Assembly: GCA_964057225.1 (NCBI GenBank)
Contig: OZ059894.1
Location: 15,314,001-15,378,000, forward strand
DNA length: 64,000 nucleotides
Reading direction: 5' to 3'
DNA from: Auanema rhodensis
Taxonomy: Eukaryota; Animalia; Nematoda
Shown here: positions 28,779 to 60,000 of the stretch, one piece after another
Numbering within the stretch: position 1 is the first letter of the stretch
Layout of the letters: every line of letters begins with the position of its first letter
The notes under the pieces: generated by a model
Databases searched by the model: none
The model's input: only the letters and a program-made list of their open reading frames with translations
Told to the model about the DNA's origin: nothing
Position numbers and translations under genes: made by a program

Positions 28779-31732
28779 TTACATAACTGCATTGATAACA
28801 TTTAAATTTTGTCTATCATTATGAGCAAATTGTTGAGGACGATAAAGGGCATCACGAGGCAACATGTAGAGTGGCTTTCTGGCAAATTTCACTTGTGGAT
28901 GAGTATCACCGTATTTATTCATAGAAATTCCTATTGGAAGACGTCCATATCCTCTGAATTGGAGTGGAGCTCCTACTCGATATCCATACCTTCTGGTAGT
29001 ATAGTATCCTCTAACGGTAGTGTATACTGGAGCACGAGTTGTTTGAGCATAATATGGTGATCGGGTAGTAATGTAGTAAACTGGACGTTGGGTAGTTGTG
29101 TAATAATAATTTGGTCTGGTTGTTTGATAAACCGGTGGTCTGGTAGTATACACTGGTGGAGCTTGAGTATAGGTTGGTGGTGATGCTGGTGGTCCACGAC
29201 GTGGTCCTCGGATGAAGTCGAGGAACTTCTGGACGATTGGAGTAATGTTATTTAGGAATGGAATTCCAGGAATGTAGTCTCCCAATGTTTGGAAACCACA
29301 AGTAGCAGAGCGAACATTTGTAGTGAGGAGGTAGCAAGAGCTGCAAATCGAAAGGTAATGATGTAAAGCAGTTTCTTGAACTTACTTGCATGAAACTTTG
29401 CAATTTTCTTGCATGTATGTTGGGTTTCGTTGGCATTCTCCGCCGCGGGCCCATGATGGACAGCTGGGATGGAGATCGACACAAGCTAGAAGAAAATAAA
29501 TTTTTAAAATTCGATAAGGAAAAGTAAAACCTGGTCCATTCCAGTTACTTGGTCCAGTACAAATGTTACATGAAGGTTGACAGTATTCTCTCATGTAGAC
29601 AGCGTATTCTGGGCGGGCACAGTATCCACTATCTCTCCATACAACACAACAGTAATGAGAGTTCAAACAAGCTGAATATATAAACAAGGTTCAAATACAG
29701 TTGTTACTATAATTACTGTTTGATGGAGTTCCAGAAGTGGTGGTAGCTCTAGTTGTGGTAGTCGTAGAAGGTGTAGGTCTTGGAGTAGTGGTAGTAGTTG
29801 TGGTAGTAGTTGTAGTTTGAGATTGCTTAAATTGAAGCATTTTATGATTGTACAGTATATCAGAAAACTTACTGCTTGACAAACTCCATTAACACATACA
29901 GAATTGTAACAATTGTCTTCATCTATAATATCATTATTATTTTATTCGACAACTTTCTTTAAACTTACTTCTATTATATCCACGGCAGTTACCTCCAAGC
30001 ATGATTTTTGCAGAGCAACGTGGGTTTCCATGAGATAAGTCACAGAAGAGATATCTAAAAAGAAATTTATATTCTCGAATAAGTAATATTTTTCATTTTC
30101 CAAATAGTTTTAGATGTAACTTACTTGGAGTTACAACCGTTGATATTATTAGCTGCACATGTTGGTCGTGGAGCATACGAGAAAAGCTCATCTAAAATAA
30201 CCTCATTTTCGTAGAATTTCAATGTTTTTAATATATTTTTGTTATTTTTCAACTGTTTCTTCAAGACATACCAGTGTACATGTTTGTAAGTCCATCAGAA
30301 TTGGTTAATGGTCCGAAGGGCTGCATTTCACTGTTTCCGTTATGAACAGTGGAGAAGCATCTGGAGTCTGTTTGAGGATATTGTGTTTGTCTAGCATCTC
30401 TTGACTATCATGTGAAATATTTGGTTCAGAATTCCTTCTTATGATGTTACCTGCCAACGGAGTCTCCATTGTTCCCAGAGATAATCAATGAAAGAGTGAT
30501 GTTGATAGAAGATAGGATCATTGGTTGATCGAGTAGTTACCAACATGTCACCTTAAACAAATTTTTTTAAACTTTTCATAAGCAACTTTTCTTACCTCCT
30601 ACGAAATTGTGAGGATTTCCGTGAGTATATTCTAAAGCAGACCATCCAGCTCTAACTTGGCAACCCTGAAATGATTTTCTCAAATCACACGATATAATAA
30701 ACTATCTACAAACATTAGCTGGAGCAGTAGCAGCTAAAACTTGATTTATATCAGAAGTTCCCATTAATGTATTGATTTCAGAATCTGTGAAAAGTGATCC
30801 TTGTCCTTGAGAACGAGTAACAATACGAGAATTCTAGAATGTTATGTAAGATATAAATATATAATTAAATATTCCACAAACATCAAGAATTCTCCAGTTA
30901 GCAAATGCTCCGGTCACAACTTGGTTGTTGTTATTCGTGGATCCCATAAGTTCGTTACTCCACATTACTGATTGCCGAGGGTTTGGAAGACCGGAATCGA
31001 GGGATGAATCCCAGTATGGTATAGCGACATCAAGATCGACAGTACGAAGAGCAAATTCAAGTCTTGAACAAAAAGCTTAACTATTAAGTTTTTTTTAGCA
31101 CCTACCGTTTAAGGAATTCTCTGTGCCATGGCAAGAAAGCTGGTCCAGAGTGTGCACCAGGAGAAGTGCGGAACTCGGAATGAACTCTAGATATACGATC
31201 GTATTCACCATTGTTTTTGATAGTCCACATTGCGTTATGATATCTATAAGTAATAAATAACCTATAATTTTCTTCTATTTCAGGATTAACCTGGTTCTTT
31301 CATTATCTGAAAGAGCACGGTATTCTTTTCTATAAGCTCTTTGAACAACTCTTCCATTTACGGAACAAGGATTACCAGAACCTACAAGCACAAAATGATG
31401 AAATATTTAAATGTGATAATTACCTCCAAGGAATCCACAGAAGCATGAGAGAGTCATACATTGATCCTTGCTTTGAGGCTGTTGAGGAATAGCAGAGAGA
31501 CCATTAGCAAAAGTAGCGATAGCTGCTACTTTTGGTTTACCTTCAATACCCTGAATTCAGAAAAGTACAAAGCTAAATTATAGTTTGTTAATACTGCAGT
31601 GTTAGATTTCCAATTTGTAATCTGTTCACAGATAATACGAAGACTGGAAGATGGAGCTGATGCACAGTCTTGAGCTAGTACCAAGCTTGGTATAGACAGC
31701 GCCCATACGAGAGCTACAAGATAAGTTCTCAT
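28779..31732 (-). CDS. Secreted tyrosinase (tyr family) with C-terminal ShKT domains, Thr-rich linker and Pro/Thr/Tyr-rich tail
   Basis: Signal peptide MRTYLVALVWALSIPSLVLA. CuA region HSEFRTSPGAHSGPAFLPWHREFLKR and AIPYWDSSLD. CuB region LEYTHGNPHNFVGGDM..NDPIFYQHHSFID. ShKT motifs CLNSHYCCVVWRDSGYC..YMREYCQPSCNIC and CVDLHPSCPSWARGGECQRNPTYMQENCKVSC. Confidence 0.95.
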
Positions 31733-49653: not shown

Positions 49654-52600
49654 TTATAACTGATATGCATTTTCGATGTGATTTCGGAAATTTTCATCGC
49701 AATTCAATTGAATTTCACCCAGCTGAAACAAATATATTATGTGTTTCATATAGTATATGGATACCGAATCTGTTATTGTGGGCATTGTATTGTCAGTATC
49801 GACTATCCCTTCTTCAGCCTTAAGAAGAATGGTTAAATTTTATAAAAAAAAATAAGAAAAAAATATAATAATGTACCAAACAAGCATAGCAATCTCCACC
49901 CGTTTCTTCAATGCAATATTTACAAAATGTGGCTGGGCAATCAACACAATATCGTAACTGAGCTGGTTTCATGTATATCTGAATAATACATTATTATATA
50001 AGATATGCTTATACACTATTACTTCACACATAATGCATTGCCCTGTTCGAAATATTCTATCTAAGACTTGAAGCTTAAACCACGATCTAGGCGAAAGCCA
50101 ACTCCTGAAAAATAAATATTACATTACTGCTTTTTCGTGTTTATTTCAGCATACTTGTCGCTTCGTGAAGCATTGATCTTCCATCGTGTAACTGTGAATC
50201 TTATTCGTGATCGTGCTTCAGACCGAGATGTGGTACGGAGAAAAAGAATCTCAAAATCAGATTTTCACTAACAGTAATGAATAATATGAGATATGTGAAA
50301 AGGTACCTTATTATAAAAATAAATAAGACGAACACGATCACGTAATGGAAACATAAACGGCAGAAAATAATTTATGATAATTCTTTTTATCACGAAAGAG
50401 AAAATGACCTTTAAGCAAACATGTTGTTTTTAACAAAAAAAAATTTTCTCTTACTTGCATAACCAAAGATATGAAAAGTGGTATAAGTAGCCATTTGATT
50501 CGATCACCCAAGTTTGGTTGTTGAGGTAAAGTCAAGCAATGCTCATTGTTAACCTGAATACTAATTTTGCAAGATGATCGATAATATTTTACAGTTTCAT
50601 ACATGATCAACTTCAATTGTTCTGTTTATGTTGACCATCTTATTCAAAAATTCTGCAACAACTCCTTCTCCTAGTACTTGAAGTTGAGCTGTTTCTTCAG
50701 TTTCTTTAATTGTTTGGGATGATGTTACAATCTTGAATTAATTTTTAAAATAACCTTAAAGAATATGCTCAAATGAATGTGTACCTTATGTAAGAAACTA
50801 TAAAGATAATGATCAATTGCTATAACAAAAACAATAATTAAAGTTAGTATAATCCAGCGGTAAAATGGATGTTTAGCTTTCTCTATTTCACTGCTTGTTG
50901 GCCATCTGACAATAATATCTTTCTATTACGTATATAATCAAAATCTAACCCGAAAACATGTAAAAGTTTCCATTTTTGCATTTCCATATGGTTTATATGA
51001 ATTAAAGCTAATTCGCCATTTAATTGACGATCCTTATCTATTTCCCAGAAACTCCTGAAAGCCAATCGTCCTGAGCAACAATGTCAAATAGAAATTTTAA
51101 TGTAACTATAACTGTAACTAACTTTGACAGATACTGATTTTGAAACTCAATATCCGTATTATAATTATGAATCATGGTTACAACATCACGAAATATACGA
51201 TAAATAAAGAATATAAGTAATCCTTGTACAAATTGTTTCAAAGACATTAACATAGCCTATAACATATAATTAATATAATTAATAGTATAATAGTTATATA
51301 TTACCTTTGCATGTGATGCTGTATATCGAACCATTAATGAAATTTCTCCGATACTATAAATGAATTCAAACCTAGGATTCTCAACTCCAATCATATGAAT
51401 CTGAAAATTTTCTTCTTTATTTTTGCAAATATTTTTTACGAAAAAAAACTTATGAAAGATTGGTTAGAAAGAGATACAAATCATATTCATAATGTGATGT
51501 ATAATATAATATACATAATTCAATAATATAATATATTAAGAACAGAAAACGTTACATTTACTGCAGCTTCTCTATCCAATTCTTTTGTTAGATTTGCTAC
51601 TTCTAGTATTTCTAATTCCACAGAGGATCCTACGTTAGATTGTTCTAAATGATTCTGACATAAACTAAATGATTTTCTTCTTCTATCTATATCCTATAAA
51701 TTAAAATGTATAACATAGAAGTTTTTTTTTCTAATTTTACTTCACAAGCCGATTCCATATTTAGTTTGTTACATACAAGGTAGTTGAGTACAAAAGGCAA
51801 ACTTCCATAGCATTTATTCTGCAATTATTTATTTTTTGAATATTATTCTAATAAAATATATATTTTTTGAAATAAACTATTATTCTATTAAATTACTTGT
51901 ATACTTATAAAAACATCTCGACATGCTTCAACCCCTTTCACGAATATATCATTGCATTTCTGAGACATACGATGAGCTATTTTTCTTCCTATCTTAAAAA
52001 ATAATAATAACTTCAAATTTTAATGCTCCTTAGAAAGCAGTATCACTTCTGTTTTGAAGCGCGACCAGGCAGGCTTTGAGTTGGTTATATTAGCCATTTC
52101 ATCTTCTTTCATTTTTCTTATTTCATCGCTACTAGCTACACCCAAAGATCGTCTTTGTGCTAATATCTTCAAACAATAATTTATTATTTTTATAATTATC
52201 TTATTATTATAAGATAACCTGTAATTGTTTATCCGTTTCATCAAGAACTTTATCTTCTTTTGTATAATTTGGAGTTAATTCACTCATAAATGGAGCTATC
52301 AATTTTCTAACAAACGATGTTGCCTTCTTCAAAACTTTAAGGCCTCTATCTACAATTTGTTATATTATTATCTACACAATTAATATTAATATTTTAACAT
52401 ATTTTTTCAAAAATGTAAAAAAAAAAGATTTTGCTAACTTAGTTGAGTTTCTAGAACAACTTCCAATGGTCCGGTAAACATGGACACTCGATTTGAAATA
52501 ATCTTAAAGCATTGTTATAACTGAAACACAATACCATATTGAGAAACCTTTGCTTGCAAATCAAGATGGCAAACAATAATTTCAGCTGTTAAACGATAAT

Positions 52601-53328
52601 TTGAGACAATATTCTCTATAGGCCCTTCTCGTAAATTATCAAAAAGCATCATTGTAAGGGGAGCTAAATTTGAAAACTAGAAAATGCTTAAACATTATTA
52701 TATGCAACCTTGCCCATTTTTTCCTAAAGATCCCAGTAATACACAAAACAGAGCACATCGAAAGATCTACAAATGTTTGAAATGTAATTACTTTTTGCTG
52801 TCACTTTGCAATTAAAAAAAACATTTGCTACGGCTATTTAGTAATAAGAGTTGTATTAAACTTACCGCACTTGCTGAAAAAGCAAAAACAATCATTAGTA
52901 TCATAATCCATTTGAATAAAATTCGATAAACTGGATGAAAATCAGCAAAATTTAAGCGTTTCCATCCCATGTAGTAGATACATGAACAAACGATTAAGCC
53001 TATGAAGCCATTGACGATGATTCTCAATTTCTTGTAATCTGTGACTTCACTATAAAATAAAAATTAATTTATTTTTTACGTCTTGAAATGATCAAAAACA
53101 CGAAAAAATAATAGTAACAAGGGATAAAAAGGAATAGTAGACCATGATGAATTGTCAATGTGAAGATCAAGTTATTCATCTATTTCTTCACATTGCATGC
53201 AAACATCTCTGCAGTTCATACTTGCTCATCACTAACCTTCTTAGAAAATAATCCTCAAGAAATCCAACTTTTGTTTTTTTTCTTAATCTATCACGTCGTT
53301 CATCCACAAAGATACCACGAAATCTCAT
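49654..53328 (-). CDS. DC-STAMP-domain / C4C4 RING sperm membrane protein (SPE-42/SPE-49; DCST1/2, Sneaky family)
   Basis: MRFRGIFVDERRDRLRKKTKVGFLEDYFLRS|EVTDYKKLRIIVNG..., then FRCALFCVL, GPIENIVSNY, CNDIFVKGVEACRDVF, NYNTDIEFQNQYL, IAIDHYLY, NNEHCLTLPQQP, FMFPLRDRVRLIYFYNK. The C-terminal CIMCE-IYMKPAQLRYCVDCPATFCKYCIEETGGDCYACL is an 8-Cys RING. Confidence 0.88.
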
Positions 53329-53588
53329 GATTACTTAAGCCAACAAGCTTTCAAACCAAATGACGCTTCACGTTTATTCCACGTTTTACGGATTCCCAAG
53401 CTCATTAGCATAATATATAATATATACTTATATACATACATATACATAAATATATAATTTTGAACTCATTTTATAAAACAATAATGATTTTATATTTTTA
53501 TTTTTGAAAATAATAATAATAATAATAATAAATAGATGTATATATTTCTAGCTATTTTTTAGGTGAGGAAATTTAAAACTCAATTGTG
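52563..53588. repeat. Left arm of a 1026-bp inverted duplication (promoter plus exons 1 to part of 4 of the DC-STAMP gene)
   Basis: Reverse complement of 55778-56803. Paired coordinates sum to 109366 throughout (ORFs 52812-53027 and 56339-56554 are identical). No mismatch was seen in the blocks compared by eye. Confidence 0.95.
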
Positions 53589-53739
53589 GCAGATGTTTAG
53601 CCATTTAAGGGCATTTTTGAAGTAAAAACATGTCTTTTCTCACCAATTCGAAAGTTATAATATTCCTAATGATAATAGAGAATTTTCTTGGAAACTTGGA
53701 ACAAACTTCAGGAGAAACATGAGCAGATCCTAACAAACT

Positions 53740-54455
53740 CAACAATGAGACAGATTATTTTACTTTTGTTTTCCTTCCATTTCAAAGTTTAAGTTTGTTG
53801 CTCCATCAGTTACGCAAGCTATTATCTTGCTCATCAAATTTGGAGTGAGCGAATCATTTAACTTAATTTTCATCATTCGGGCTGACTGTGAGCCTGATAG
53901 ATCTATAACATCCCATATGAAGTTCATCCGTTTCTGAGTATCATAACTAATTGTGTGAGTGGTCACCGACAGCAAAGAGATAACTAGAATAAGAGTTACA
54001 ACATATCAATGAAATATAATTTTCAAAAAATAAAAAACTAACCTGTGTTTTCTGAACTCCATGCGTTAAACGTTAGCATACGTTTTCGCCTTTTCGCCTA
54101 TTTTCAAGACGTCCATCGCTTTTGTTCTTGATATTACAGAATAAGCAGGATTGAGTTTTTTAATCAACTCTTTTAAAAACTAGTTATCCATAACAGGTAA
54201 ATAAGCAGAACATATGAACTTGGTAAACATCATATTGACTTCATCCTGGGAACACTTGGGTGTGCTTTCAAAAAAATTTGACAGACTCTGCCTAGCTAAA
54301 TGCTTCAAGAATTTGCAATCAACCACATGCGTTTTCAGCATGGTTTTTGACCCAGAATCAGTGTACTTCTTCGAACATTTTCTACATTGGAAGAAGCCTT
54401 TCTCATCTTTTTGAGATCGGATATATTTAAAATACGTGTTGTACTTGTTTCCCAT
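53740..54455 (-). pseudogene. hAT-superfamily transposase remnant (BED finger plus N-terminal catalytic region)
   Basis: BED zinc finger FQCRKCSKKYTDSGSKTMLKTHVVDC, then FTKFICSAYLPVMDN*FLKELIKKLNPAYSVISRT (hAT motif, in-frame stop at 54180), LSVTTHTI and KIIACVTDGATN. It is frameshifted and truncated. Confidence 0.82.
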
Positions 54456-54660
54456 AATTAATTGAGAATGAATACGAAATGTAAGTTGAACAGGCAAACT
54501 ACGTGTTCACTATAGGACTCATAAAACAATTGGATTATGGAATTTACATAAAGTCTATAATTGTATCGATTTGTCTATAATCGTTTGCAAGTATAATAGG
54601 TACATATCATTTAATTTTTATTCTAAATTTTGAATTAGTTAAATAGTTTACTTAAATATC

Positions 54661-55109
54661 CATTTAACTTCAAATCATAAAATCTTCGAGTATTATTCAT
54701 TACCAAATAAAATATTATATAAAAAATATGAAATAGCTTTAATAACATTAGATAGAGAGATTAATAATTCAAAGTTAGAATCTAAACTGTTAATTCGTAA
54801 TACCAATATGAATGTTGATATAATTCAAAATAATAATATAAACCATGCAGATTATGAAAAAAAATAATAAAAATTTTATTTATAATATTTATATTAATTG
54901 CAACTTAATAAATTATTCATACATTAATGAAAACTACATTAATTCCTTGTATATAATAAGAAATATTGGCGACTATTACCATTGAGTCAAAACAATTAGT
55001 TTATCATAAAGTAACTAATGAAATAAAGAAAATTCATATTAGACTTGTAGATGATAAAAATGACTTAATTAAGTGTAATAACATAGATCTTTATTTAGAG
55101 GAAGTATAA
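54661..55109 (+). pseudogene. Maverick/Polinton minor capsid (penton)-like remnant, two frameshifts
   Basis: HLTSN..YSLPNKILYKKYEIALI, then IYINCNLINYSYINENYINSLY, then TIESKQLVYHKVTNEIKKIHIRLVDDKNDLIKCNNIDLYLEEV*. The order and wording match recalled Polinton penton motifs (LP..I.L...YEVAL / CNII..SY.NG / I.IRLTD.NG.LI). Confidence 0.65.
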
Positions 55110-55297
55110 TTTTATTATTATGAGATAAGCTTAAATCGTGAACCAAAAATTATTCCATTTATAAATTTTTGGTTCTCCTTAGTTAATTAATTTTTCTTTT
55201 TATAAGTTTTTGGTCTTTTAATTGTAGTTTGAATATTCTCATTTTCTCTATATTTTTATTATCATTTTGTGACAATTTTGAACTCTGATCGGAAGCA

Positions 55298-55462
55298 GCT
55301 ATTCGAGTCTAAATTTACAATACCTACTTCTCTTGGAAGTATTTCATCTGGCAAATTGTCTCTCATGAATATACCACAGAAATTCTTGATTTCTAGCATT
55401 TCTACTACTTCTTCGAGGTTGATGTTGGCCAATGGTTTAAGGTCTTTCTTCAGAGTACTCAA
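55298..55462 (-). pseudogene. Maverick/Polinton adenain-type cysteine protease, N-terminal remnant
   Basis: KPLANINLEEVVEMLEIKNFCGIFMRDNLPDEILPREVGIVNLDSNS matches the Polinton protease motif PLSN.DL..F.GVF.RD.LP..E.GI.NLD. It is truncated before the catalytic GTHW. Confidence 0.78.
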
Positions 55463-55777
55463 TTATTAAGGTTATTATTATTTATTGAAAATGTTGAAAA
55501 GCTGAAATTTGAAAAAAAACTGGGCACTGGGCAAAATGGACAACAGCTGCGCCAGTCATTTTTTGGTCATTTTTCAAAAATGACACATTTTGAGGAAATT
55601 AAGAAATGTTTTCACTTCAAAAATTGCTTTAAATGGCTGAAAATCTGAAAACGTCATTGGGGGCAAAAAGGTGCGCCAGAAACAACTTTTCACATACTAC
55701 TATTATTTATATTGAAATGTTACAAGCAAGAGCGGATCAGAAATCGGTTGTTCATTTCCGTTTAGAAGGATAAAAGA

Positions 55778-56803
55778 CACAATTGAGTTTTAAATTTCCT
55801 CACCTAAAAAATAGCTAGAAATATATACATCTATTTATTATTATTATTATTATTATTTTCAAAAATAAAAATATAAAATCATTATTGTTTTATAAAATGA
55901 GTTCAAAATTATATATTTATGTATATGTATGTATATAAGTATATATTATATATTATGCTAATGAGCTTGGGAATCCGTAAAACGTGGAATAAACGTGAAG
56001 CGTCATTTGGTTTGAAAGCTTGTTGGCTTAAGTAATCATGAGATTTCGTGGTATCTTTGTGGATGAACGACGTGATAGATTAAGAAAAAAAACAAAAGTT
56101 GGATTTCTTGAGGATTATTTTCTAAGAAGGTTAGTGATGAGCAAGTATGAACTGCAGAGATGTTTGCATGCAATGTGAAGAAATAGATGAATAACTTGAT
56201 CTTCACATTGACAATTCATCATGGTCTACTATTCCTTTTTATCCCTTGTTACTATTATTTTTTCGTGTTTTTGATCATTTCAAGACGTAAAAAATAAATT
56301 AATTTTTATTTTATAGTGAAGTCACAGATTACAAGAAATTGAGAATCATCGTCAATGGCTTCATAGGCTTAATCGTTTGTTCATGTATCTACTACATGGG
56401 ATGGAAACGCTTAAATTTTGCTGATTTTCATCCAGTTTATCGAATTTTATTCAAATGGATTATGATACTAATGATTGTTTTTGCTTTTTCAGCAAGTGCG
56501 GTAAGTTTAATACAACTCTTATTACTAAATAGCCGTAGCAAATGTTTTTTTTAATTGCAAAGTGACAGCAAAAAGTAATTACATTTCAAACATTTGTAGA
56601 TCTTTCGATGTGCTCTGTTTTGTGTATTACTGGGATCTTTAGGAAAAAATGGGCAAGGTTGCATATAATAATGTTTAAGCATTTTCTAGTTTTCAAATTT
56701 AGCTCCCCTTACAATGATGCTTTTTGATAATTTACGAGAAGGGCCTATAGAGAATATTGTCTCAAATTATCGTTTAACAGCTGAAATTATTGTTTGCCAT
56801 CTT
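55778..56803. repeat. Right arm of the 1026-bp inverted duplication
   Basis: Reverse complement of 52563-53588, running from CACAATTGAG to TTTGCCATCTT. Confidence 0.95.
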
Positions 56804-57082
56804 TTTTTACATACTACTAATAATATTTGCAATTCTATTGCTTCTGCTCTTTCCGTTGTATTTTCGAACTTTTTGATGACAATTTCATTCTTTCTCTCAC
56901 TATGTTGGCTTGGAAAGCAGATTTTCTTCAAATTAGAACTACATTTGTTGAAAAAAAATAAATATTGTGTTTTTTTAATGATAACTACACATGCATACTA
57001 CATTCCTAGACATATAGTTCGATTTCTTATGAAATGTAAGATTATAGCTTTCTCTACCGGATGTTTTTGCATACCCCTCTAG
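56038..57082 (+). pseudogene. Truncated, chimeric duplicate of the DC-STAMP gene 5' end
   Basis: ATG at 56038 mirrors 53328. Exons are identical up to AEIIVCHL (56803), then the frame reads through unrelated sequence (FLHTTNNICNS...) to a stop at 57082. Confidence 0.75.
56804..56824 (-). mobile_element. Displaced second terminus of the Maverick-like element plus its TSD copy
   Basis: TTTTTACATACTACT-AATAAT reads ATTATT-AGTAGTATGTAAAAA on the minus strand. That is the same 6-mer TSD and AGTAGTATGT terminus as at 55692-55707. Confidence 0.6.
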
Positions 57083-60000
57083 TCATACTAGTATCTGGAC
57101 GACCAAGATTGACCTTTCTTCTAAGCTTTCAACATCTTCAAAACATATAAAGAAATGGAAACTTAAATTTTAATGAAGACGAACGTTAGAAAATCAATTT
57201 TCTTTTCTGACCTCGTGCTCGGATGTCAGTGATGGATTTGCTTTATCTTCGGTTCAACTCTCCAAATGTAATGTATTTTATATGTTTTACATATCGAACT
57301 ATGATAGTTTTATCAAACCAGTTATATATTTTTTTTTCTTTCAATCTTTTATTTTTATTTTTTTTTTATAATTTGCATATTTTTATTTTTCTCTCATGAG
57401 ATTCATGCACTTTGATTGTTACCAACCTATCATTAAGTTTTCATTAATAACTATGTATGTATGTCGACTTTAGAACTAGATAATGATTCTGATTTGAATA
57501 TGTTCTTTCAACACCAGAAAGCGCATAGATTCATCTTTTTCAAAAATTCATGCAAATATTTCTATCTCGTCAATGCTTTGTTGCATCTTCACTTCATATA
57601 TCATGCCCAAACTCGTAATATTCGATATTCATTCCATGTTTTCAGTTAATATCTTTCTTTCGTTTTCATCTTATTTTGAGATTAAGTTTAGAGATCATAT
57701 AGCATATCAAAATCTAAAAAAAGTAGATAAAACCGTCACAATTTGAGAAGCATCCGATTAATCGTGCCAATCTTGATTTGATGAAAGCTTGGAATAAAGA
57801 GAAAGTATGGAAGTTTCAATGTATATATATAACATAACAATCTTCGAAATAAAAATATAGTATAATCATTGATTCATTAAACTGTGCATAACACAACGAT
57901 TTACTTTCTTTTCTTATTCAATTACTAATTCTTTTAAAATTTTTTATTTCTCATCTTCATCTTTTTCTATTATCTTATAATATTCCTTTTCCAGTTTTTC
58001 TTCATATCTTTTTTCAATACTAATATATTCATTCTACTAGATATTTCATATTTTGAAGAGCAGTGAAATTCAGTTGTCTAAAAATGCTCAAAAAAAATTT
58101 AAATTTAAGATTTTTAAAATGTTTCACATGAGCTATCAGCATGTACATCGTTTTTCTAATGAAATTGATAGACCGTTGAGAGCAATTGATGAGTATGTTG
58201 CTTTTCTTCAGTTCAAAAGAAATTGACAGATGGAGGATAAGCTGAAATTCCTTGAGGGAATTGGTAACCATCTCACAAATATTTACAACTTCCATCCTTT
58301 TGAAAGATATTCAACTTTCCTCTTTATATTTGCAATTTTCTTCAAAACTAAGATTATGTCGTCAAACATTCGCACAGTTATTCATCCAATTATGAAGTAA
58401 TTCATCTTTTTTAACAAAAAATATACTATTACATTCATTTATCCATTCTTAACAAAATAAAACAAATTCTAGCTCTATTCAACTGTAGGTAATACGTAGA
58501 TTTCATTAGTTCTGCTATGCTTTTTTTTTATCTTTTCTTCATACTCTTCAAGTAAACAAAAGCTTTTGTCCTAAACTTAGATTCTAGCGGCAACAGTTTT
58601 TCATCTTCTTTGCGTCGGTCATCAGTCTATCTAGGATTGATATTGACAGATTTAAGTCTGTTATTATTATTCAGATAAAAATAAGCAGCCATTTTGTTTT
58701 TTTTTCTTCATAACCTAATTCCGTTTTGCATACTTTTCATCGTTTTTTTCACAACAAAAGATACAAATTATCAGAACATTTCTCAGAGTTGTACTGGACA
58801 AAACAGAATACATATATATCGAAATATTTATTTTTTCATGAATGATTTTATATGGTTTCAATCGTTATTTTAACAAAAAAAAATCTTAATCAGCATCTGA
58901 GTTATAGTATTTGATATCTACTTTGCCTTTTTCGTTCATGTTTTGATAGAAATTCATTCTTAAAGAACAGATGTACGCGCAGATTTTTCCGGTAGAGGGA
59001 AGAAGAACATGCACGAACTTTCATCCTCCGCCCTTTTCACTTCCTCCATCTTCCGTTTATCACTTTTTTTCGAATCTCTCTCTCTCAATCGTTTCTTCTC
59101 TCCTTTTTCATTTCTTGCTCTACTTCTACCCCTTTTCGTAAAAGTTTAGCTTCAGTTCTAAACCATATGTTTTCTTAATTTTGAAATACTTTAAATATAC
59201 ATATGTATGTATCTATATATGTATAAGAAGTAAAACAACAAGCAAACATCATCCTAAATTCAATTATTCTATTTCATTTTATTATTGTAATCATTACTAC
59301 TGTACTTTCAGCGCCGTTATTTTACAAAAAAAATGTTTTTTTTTTATTTTTTAAAAATATTAATTGTTTTCTATTCATATATAATATATGTTTATAAGTA
59401 TATCATTATTTTAATAATAAAAATGAATAACAAAAACAAAAAAAAAACAAATAAATCAATTTCTCCACGTTTCAATTATTTGAAGAATAGGTTCTTCAGT
59501 TTGAATCATCTTCATGAAAAAAATGGAATAACTCACTTTTCATTCATTTTCAATATTTATATTAAAATAATATATATTATATGACTTTTAGTTGGATGTC
59601 ATTTTAAAAGAAATTCGATTTGAAACCTAAACAAATAAGAAATAGCTTGCATGTTCCATACATAAATACGTGCACAAATGGCTTAACCACAATTCATGTT
59701 GAAGTTAAAATCTACTATAATTTTGCATTTTTTTAACATATAATTTCAAATTATTATTTAAAAATAGCATGTTAAGATTATAATTCCAAGAGTATGACTA
59801 TCGAATTTGTATTTGTTAAAAATACAAACATGTATGGAACTATTTTTTTCCTCAAAAATATATGGATAATCTTGATTGAGATATGAAACCGAGTTAAGGA
59901 TAGTTTAACAGAAAATGCATATTTCTCAGCAAATACCATATATTTTGAAGATTTTCAATGAAACATTTTAAAGACCAAGCAACAATATTCTTATTTTATT

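What the first reader, a model, noticed from the sequence alone, without database searches (positions are those of the whole stretch)
53589..55701. Maverick/Polinton-like viral element whose only visible recombinase is a hAT transposase
Seen in sequence: one ~2.1 kb unit bounded by inverted repeats holds a BED-finger hAT transposase remnant (-), a penton-like remnant (+) and an adenain-protease remnant (-). No retroviral-type integrase, pPolB, major capsid or ATPase remnant is visible. Established knowledge: Mavericks have 5'-AG termini and 6-bp TSDs and integrate with an rve integrase, whereas hATs make 8-bp TSDs; nematode Mavericks are known to carry cargo genes. Inference: the 6-bp TSD says this copy was integrated by Maverick machinery. 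The hAT gene is then either stable cargo of a Maverick lineage (a virus-like vehicle for another transposon, or a hAT-Maverick chimera) or a nested insertion later trimmed by deletion. A recurring hAT-plus-capsid architecture would be an element type I do not know to have been described.
Basis: partly seen in the sequence, partly recalled or inferred. Interest (0 to 1): 0.8.

Follow-up and report, generated by a model that had tools for sequence, protein, structure and literature searches.

The report
Maverick fossil with nested hAT transposon
This 2-kb stretch is the decayed remnant of a virus-like Maverick transposon, likely in a roundworm, into which an unrelated cut-and-paste (hAT) transposon likely jumped once before deletions and a local inversion scrambled it, so it is ordinary genomic debris rather than a new hybrid element.

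Summary
The anatomy is largely real, but the novel reading is not supported. The unit has Maverick AGTAGT...ACTACT ends. It holds a truncated adenain-type protease, whose full-length relatives fold like adintovirus adenains, and a frameshifted gene that is only weakly supported as penton-like. It also holds the 5' half of an intron-containing hAT transposase (BED finger, RNase H-like piece). The 6-bp target duplication (AATAAT) is not at the stated coordinates. It appears only after undoing an inversion that left a perfect 1,026-bp inverted duplication of host DNA and stranded the last 15 bp of one terminus at 56804-56818. Contigs of four DNA runs (three studies) decide the main question. Other hAT copies stop resembling the window at 54535-54608. 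The one other copy of the penton-like region starts resembling it at 54599 and has 1,818 unlike bases upstream. In three runs no contig other than this locus bridges the hAT/penton-like or the terminus/53644 junction. So the hAT and the Maverick are separate families in this genome, and their union is seen once. Best reading (about 85%): one-off nested hAT insertion, then deletion, then a recent inversion. Low interest.

The parts
52563..53588 (+). Left arm of a 1,026-bp inverted duplication of host DNA; inferred to be the native copy
   Evidence: 1026 of 1026 bases complementary to 55778-56803
53590..53636 (+). Inner part of the second Maverick terminal inverted repeat, cut by the inversion breakpoint; about 38 bases between it and the stranded tip are missing (inferred)
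   Evidence: 40 of 47 bases complementary to 55601-55647
53644..53792 (.). Unassigned piece; 53644-53705 is shared with 3-4 other contigs that run on unlike the window to the left of 53644. By eye it may be a scrap of the hAT C-terminal region (recalled motif, untested)
   Evidence: Loose ends and record 9; no Pfam family in 3 minus frames or 5 plus-strand pieces
53793..54595 (-). 5' half of a hAT transposon: end near 54595-54608, ATG at 54455, BED finger, in-frame stop and frameshifts, 59-nt intron 53984-54042, RNase H-like piece ending at VTDGATN; the rest is deleted
   Evidence: paralogous contigs at 89-91% identity that leave the window at 53793, 54535 and between 54598 and 54608
54643..55109 (+). 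Intronless, about 155-codon gene in three frames (breaks near 54865 and 54975, no start codon); penton-like on weak evidence
   Evidence: Relatives P0003-P0005; Atlas lead; negative Pfam, PDB and fold searches
55110..55303 (-). Unassigned AT-rich stretch, possibly the tail of another Maverick gene converging on the penton-like stop (inference)
   Evidence: Six-frame translation; no Pfam family in the one minus frame scanned
55304..55462 (-). N-terminal third of an adenain-type (Polinton PRO) cysteine protease; similarity ends before the catalytic residues
   Evidence: 71% identity over 51 aa to P0001; alignment A2; fold search of P0002
55500..55701 (-). Intact Maverick terminus beginning AGTAGTATG, with short subterminal repeats; repeated elsewhere in the genome
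   Evidence: summed depth 779 against about 46 for this locus in run X1, bin 55521-55596 (not a copy number)
55702..55707 (-). First copy of the 6-bp target duplication (AATAAT on the minus strand)
55708..55777 (-). 70 bp of original host flank, carried along in the inversion and not duplicated
55778..56803 (-). Right arm: inverted duplicate of 52563-53588
   Evidence: contigs in runs X1, X5 and X9 end exactly 30 nt inside each arm
56804..56818 (+). Stranded outer 15 bp of the second Maverick terminus (ends CATACTACT)
   Evidence: 14 of 15 match to 55687-55701; 0.04 expected by chance
56819..56824 (+). Second copy of the 6-bp target duplication (AATAAT)

Best explanation
This is a dead, internally deleted Maverick (Polinton) copy into which an unrelated hAT transposon likely inserted once, and which was likely then trimmed by deletions and flipped by a recent local inversion. 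Step 1 (end motif and hexamers shown; enzyme inferred): a Maverick integrated through its own family's integrase, leaving AGTAGT/ACTACT ends and an AATAAT duplication. Step 2 (inferred from paralogous contigs): an intron-bearing hAT of a family present elsewhere in this genome inserted just upstream of the penton-like gene, in the opposite orientation. Step 3 (truncations shown; order inferred): deletions removed most of the protease, most Maverick genes, the hAT's catalytic C-terminal part and its 3' end, fusing what was left to the second terminal repeat at 53643/53644. The deletion that took the hAT's 3' end must postdate the insertion. Step 4 (structure shown; mechanism inferred): much later, since the arms are 100% identical while element copies differ by 9-15%, a staggered-break or template-switch inversion flipped most of the element and 70 bp of flank, duplicated 1,026 bp of host DNA in inverted orientation, and left 15 bp of terminus plus one hexamer behind. 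Nothing here is predicted to make a working enzyme or to move now.
For: laid contigs of 4 of the 11 runs listed (3 studies) at 80% likeness; one search checks the arithmetic. (a) In bin 54609-54684 the summed depth equals this locus plus one paralogue in X1 (83.0 = 31.3 + 51.7), X5 (120.2 = 60.3 + 59.9) and X9 (25.8 = 8.32 + 17.5). In X1 that paralogue (2,032 nt) starts to match at 54599 and has 1,818 unlike bases before it. So no other contig crosses from the hAT into the penton-like gene. (b) A hAT paralogue (2,598 nt) matches 54212-54535 and runs on for 2,270 unlike bases. Another matches 54577 onward and stops by 54608. A third matches 53793-53952 and has 673 unlike bases beyond 53793. (c) In bin 53545-53620 all depth comes from this locus in X1, X5 and X9, and 3 (X1) and 4 (X5) contigs begin at 53644 with loose ends, so the terminus/53644 junction is also seen once. 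(d) A 964-nt contig spanning the hAT/penton-like junction has no differences from the window and a depth like that of single contigs (31 in X1, 60 in X5). (e) The hAT gene has an intron and 34% GC against 19% for the penton-like gene; intact Maverick genes are described as intronless. (f) The end motif and 6-bp duplication are Maverick-type, not the 8-bp hAT type. (g) A cut-and-paste transposon jumping into a nematode Maverick is already modelled for a MULE (bioRxiv 10.1101/2022.07.12.499685, passages).
Against: The classic proof of nesting (both hAT ends and an 8-bp duplication) is missing: no second hAT end was found in the window, and no 7-of-8 match to four candidate octamers in 53589-53850. 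No whole genome was available, so copies were seen only as short-read contigs. These drop rare variants, miss copies under 80% alike, and are filtered; only 32 of 296 pieces and 24 of 258 loose ends were displayed. What the paralogues' unlike bases encode was not read. One copy cannot tell whether the hAT entered before or after this Maverick integrated. X10 covers the locus only in part, and its depths were not checked. The penton label is weakly supported.
Confidence: 0.85

Rival explanations
1. The hAT inserted into a parent Maverick elsewhere, and this copy was integrated already carrying it, so the Maverick acted once or briefly as a vehicle for the hAT; sibling copies were lost or are too diverged to see.
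For: The hAT lies between the two Maverick termini, and the 6-bp duplication is Maverick-type. The hAT and penton-like parts differ from their nearest paralogues by similar amounts (about 9-11%), so the ages do not order the events. Nematode Mavericks carry cargo.
Against: No sibling with either junction in three runs. The hAT family exists independently in the same genome, which makes local insertion the simpler route.
Confidence: 0.09
2. A stable hAT-Maverick chimera in which the hAT transposase replaces the integrase, as a piggyBac-like transposon does for the herpesvirus in Teratorn.
For: The hAT is the only recombinase gene recognisable in the 2.1 kb, and the inner inverted repeat happens to begin with CAG, as many hAT ends do (recalled).
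Against: The duplication is 6 bp and the true ends are AGTAGT/ACTACT. The CAG repeat is the inside of the Maverick terminus, and the octamers beside its two copies differ. The hAT has its own end inside the element at about 54595-54608. Both families occur apart, and no second copy has the architecture.
Confidence: 0.02
3. The inversion and inverted duplication are an assembly artefact, so the order of parts and the target duplication are misread.
For: Perfect 1-kb inverted arms are typical of misassembly, and the outer junctions were not tested.
Against: Both inner junctions are present without mismatch in contigs of X1, X5 and X9 (three studies). These contigs end exactly 30 nt inside each arm, as expected where a real repeat branches, and have depth like neighbouring contigs in X1 (44, 46) and X5 (61, 62). 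One run may be the source of the assembly. An artefact would not explain the stranded 15-bp terminus with a matching hexamer.
Confidence: 0.04

Closest known systems
Maverick/Polinton elements, defective copies (Barreat and Katzourakis 2021, PMC8097293, passages; nematode Polintons, Jeong et al. 2023, PMC10748475, passages)
   Same: (AGT)2//(ACT)2 end motif, 6-bp target duplication, terminal inverted repeat of about 100 bp, adenain-type protease, intronless viral genes; 96% of vertebrate copies are described as degraded fossils
   Different: About 2.1 kb instead of 13-25 kb; no pPolB, integrase, ATPase or major capsid recognised; carries a hAT fragment; one terminus split by an inversion
MULE inserted into a nematode Maverick, origin of msft-1/tlpr-1 (Widen et al., bioRxiv 10.1101/2022.07.12.499685, passages)
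   Same: A host cut-and-paste transposon landing inside a Maverick
   Different: There the MULE captured a cargo protease and moved on; here the hAT lost its 3' end, and no capture or further movement is seen
hAT transposons (Hermes; PMC10368747, passages)
   Same: BED finger, RNase H-like catalytic piece, repeated short motifs near the end
   Different: Only the 5' half and one end survive; no 8-bp duplication left
Teratorn, a piggyBac-like transposon fused with a herpesvirus (PMC10175614, start of abstract in the search listing; the herpesvirus part is recalled)
   Different: Teratorn is a stable composite with the transposon's ends outside (recalled); here the ends and duplication are the Maverick's and the combination is seen once
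Inversions with inverted duplications from staggered breaks (Ranz et al. 2007, PMC1885836, passages); Polinton-linked inversion at C. elegans eri-6/7 (PMC11414722, passages)
   Same: Inversion flanked by an inverted duplication of unique host DNA; a Polinton remnant at a rearranged host locus
   Different: At eri-6/7 several Polinton copies are involved and the repeats come from the termini; here one breakpoint is inside the terminus of a single copy and the duplicated DNA is host

Membership tests
Maverick/Polinton | Terminal inverted repeats with (AGT)2//(ACT)2 or (AG)3//(CT)3 end motif | tested here: met
   motif; one terminus is split by the inversion
Maverick/Polinton | 6-bp target site duplication | tested here: met
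   AATAAT, 6 of 6, only under the inversion model
Maverick/Polinton | Adenovirus-like maturation protease | tested here: met
   Truncated remnant; (fold test done on relative P0002)
Maverick/Polinton | Minor capsid (penton) gene | tested here: inconclusive
   Atlas lead below its recognition threshold; negative
Maverick/Polinton (autonomous) | pPolB, rve integrase, packaging ATPase and major capsid genes | tested here: not met
   No match in the pieces scanned against Pfam, and 2.1 kb cannot hold them; the copy is filed as a deleted remnant, not as an autonomous member
Maverick/Polinton (autonomous) | Full-length relatives with the same termini encode integrase and pPolB | not testable with these tools
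   No genome held; viral contig scans empty
hAT superfamily | N-terminal BED zinc finger | tested here: met
   PF02892 E 0.0013, 19.2 bits, just under the 20.6 cut-off
hAT superfamily | RNase H-like DDE catalytic domain | tested here: inconclusive
   The piece up to the second aspartate motif matches DUF659 and ZBED1 RNase-like clusters; Pfam and PDB negative; the rest, with the glutamate, is deleted
hAT superfamily | Two terminal inverted repeats and an 8-bp duplication | tested here: inconclusive
   One end inferred near 54595-54608; no partner end or octamer found, consistent with deletion
Stable hAT-Maverick composite (proposed) | Independent copies keep hAT, penton-like gene and protease joined | tested here: not met
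   No contig other than this locus bridges either hAT junction in X1, X5 or X9; limited to copies at least 80% alike

The most novel reading that the evidence does not exclude
A nematode Maverick lineage propagated while carrying an intron-containing hAT transposon as a passenger, so Maverick particles would be a vehicle for horizontal transfer of hAT elements, and this locus is the one surviving trace.
Probability: 0.08. Interest if true: 0.55.

Novelty: new member of a known kind. Interest (0 to 1): 0.14.

Why it matters
As read here it matters little. Degraded Mavericks and transposons nested in transposons are common. It is a tidy small example of a Maverick remnant at the breakpoint of a recent inversion with a 1-kb inverted duplication, and it shows an unnamed Maverick family with AGTAGT ends in this genome. 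It would matter if a second, independently integrated copy carried the same hAT, because that would show a virus-like element ferrying a cut-and-paste transposon. I found no such case for hAT and Maverick in searches (listings and abstract starts, plus the passages cited), which do not cover most subscription journals.

Tried and rejected
No whole genome was held, so genome-wide BLAST was impossible. Word-based protein searches with the BED-containing piece (0 of 6 candidates) and the C-terminal penton-like piece (0 of 10) found nothing, which is weak evidence. Viral contig scans were empty for the protease, penton-like pieces, the hAT piece and the hAT end motif. The Maverick terminus pattern gave 7 metagenome loci; none shares more than the 18-22-nt pattern or short AT-rich matches, and tblastx found nothing, so all 7 were dropped as chance. 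PDB sequence searches gave no informative hit. The model of P0003 had pLDDT 42 and no match at E<=0.001; this is no evidence either way. P0006, the fourth hit, is a repetitive protein and was dropped. Reading the CAG...CTG inner repeat as hAT ends was rejected (no 8-bp duplication; it is the inside of the Maverick terminus). hAT-driven alternative transposition as the cause of the inversion was rejected because neither breakpoint is at the hAT end. The lower depth of this locus than of its paralogues in X9 (5-12 against 14-18) might mean polymorphism, but the tool warns against reading depth so, and it is not used. Earlier-findings searches by sequence and by the combined words found nothing on this element. 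No supplementary files were consulted; Polinton coordinates in the supplements of PMC10748475 might include this family.

Full report
Setting. The window is about 30% GC and holds short-intron animal genes (ShK, EF-hand and G-alpha exons). A nematode host is an inference from this and agrees with earlier unreviewed notes on the same genome. No whole genome is held.

Boundaries. Self-comparison of the window gives only two non-trivial repeats. One is a long inverted pair whose exact arms are 52563-53588 and 55778-56803, 1026 of 1026 bases. The other is a 47-bp pair, 53590-53636 and 55601-55647, 40 of 47 alike. The 15-mer ending CATACTACT occurs at 55687-55701 and, with one mismatch, at 56804-56818, immediately outside the right arm; 0.04 matches are expected and 0 of 100 shuffles reach two. 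Both lie on the plus strand. They are followed by ATTATT and AATAAT, which are reverse complements. One rearrangement explains all of this. Originally: host arm, 70 bp of host, AATAAT, element beginning AGTAGT and ending ACTACT, AATAAT, host. An inversion then flipped the 70 bp, one hexamer and nearly all of the element, duplicated the arm, and broke the second terminal repeat, leaving its last 15 bp in place and losing about 38 bp. (AGT)2//(ACT)2 with a 6-bp duplication is the commonest vertebrate Maverick end type (PMC8097293, passages). Inversions flanked by inverted duplications of unique DNA are the staggered-break signature (PMC1885836, passages); template switching would give the same product (recalled). 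Contigs of runs X1, X5 and X9, from three studies, carry both inner junctions without mismatch and end exactly 30 nt inside each arm.

Genes. The minus-strand piece 55304-55462 is 71% identical over 51 residues to P0001, one of 2 hits among 12 candidates. P0001 and P0002 weakly match Peptidase_C5, and a P0002 model (pLDDT 56) matches viral adenain-type proteases, including MELD virus protease and Terrapene adintovirus adenain (11 matches at E<=0.001). Similarity ends before the His-Asp-Cys positions (alignment A2; residue roles recalled). The plus-strand gene 54643-55109 runs through three frames. Its first part has three unnamed short relatives at 60-70% identity (3 of 4 hits kept). Its penton label rests on motifs I recall and on an Atlas lead: viral hypothetical clusters at 0.96 and a cluster in which 21% of members carry PF21507 V18-19 at 0.95, with recognition below threshold; that V18-19 is a virophage penton is recalled. 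Pfam, PDB and fold searches did not confirm it. The hAT piece has a BED finger just under Pfam's cut-off, a 59-nt intron, and a catalytic-domain fragment that the Atlas places with DUF659 and ZBED1 RNase-like clusters, with 10 of the 10 best family-bearing hits in one family or clan and recognition 3097. It carries a stop and frameshifts and ends after VTDGATN at 53793. Two stretches, 53644-53792 and 55110-55303, remain unassigned.

Is the hAT-Maverick union recurrent? Eleven DNA runs hold the stretch; I laid four at 80% likeness. This locus appears as contigs without mismatches at single-contig depth, including one of 964 nt across the hAT/penton-like junction. Related contigs at about 89-91% identity cover parts only. 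One hAT paralogue matches 54212-54535 and continues with 2,270 unlike bases. One matches from 54577 and stops by 54608. One matches 53793-53952 and continues with 673 unlike bases past 53793. The single paralogue of the penton-like 5' region starts at 54599 with 1,818 unlike bases upstream. Only 32 of 296 pieces are displayed, so I used the depth table, which sums all contigs. In bin 54609-54684 the total equals this locus plus that one paralogue in X1, X5 and X9, and in bin 53545-53620 it equals this locus alone. Hence no other contig crosses either junction. Another contig joins 54965 to 55296 in X1 and X5 (depths 47 and 69, shorter side 29 letters), which suggests a second, differently deleted Maverick remnant with penton-like and protease sequence side by side. 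The terminal 55521-55672 region is matched by many contigs. Limits: short-read contigs, a filter, an 80% floor, and unread unlike sequence.

Mechanism. Shown: the ends, the hexamers, the truncations, the arms, and the separate occurrence of the two families. Inferred: integration by a Maverick integrase; hAT insertion upstream of the penton-like gene; deletions, one of which removed the hAT 3' end together with Maverick interior and so came after the insertion; and a late inversion, dated only by 100% arm identity against 9-15% divergence among element copies. Not resolved: whether the hAT entered before or after this copy integrated. The 8-bp hAT duplication (PMC10368747, passages) cannot be shown because one end is gone.

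Comparison. It works like any degraded Maverick, and most described copies are such fossils. It meets the end, duplication and protease criteria and fails the autonomous gene set, so it is filed as a deleted remnant. A cut-and-paste transposon entering a nematode Maverick is already proposed for a MULE, and Polinton-associated inversions are described at C. elegans eri-6/7. A virus adopting a cut-and-paste transposase is known as Teratorn (listing), but the test for such a composite was not met here.

Verdict. Observation partly confirmed, with corrected boundaries. Interpretation partly supported: the mundane branch holds. New member of a known kind; interest 0.14.

Noticed in passing
window 52563-53588 and 55778-56803: A perfect 1,026-bp inverted duplication of host DNA with a 2.2-kb spacer; it contains what looks like at least one host exon (about 56310-56510 on the plus strand of the right arm), so an antisense copy of host exon sequence now sits beside the gene.
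   Followed up: partly
window 51500-52400 and 56825-59150, minus strand: Exon-like, charged, coiled-coil-looking frames on both sides suggest that one minus-strand host gene spans the locus. At the modelled empty site one frame is open 59 codons before and 19 after, another 22 and 21. Whether the gene is disrupted or splices the whole structure out is unknown.
   Followed up: partly
window 55521-55672: The Maverick subterminal region, with short repeated motifs, is matched by many contigs (summed depth 779 against about 46 in X1), so a family of Maverick ends or miniature derivatives exists in this genome.
   Followed up: no
window 54965-55296 (joint): A separate contig in X1 and X5 joins penton-like to protease sequence across a different 330-bp gap: likely a second deleted Maverick remnant.
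   Followed up: no
window 28779-29690, minus strand: ShK-domain exons (E 5e-17) next to a 200-codon Thr/Pro/Tyr/Arg-rich frame, as in a secreted or surface protein.
   Followed up: no
window 1-64000: Cumulative GC skew rises to about 46 kb and then falls; many AG/TC microsatellites. Probably reflects gene orientation; not examined.
   Followed up: no
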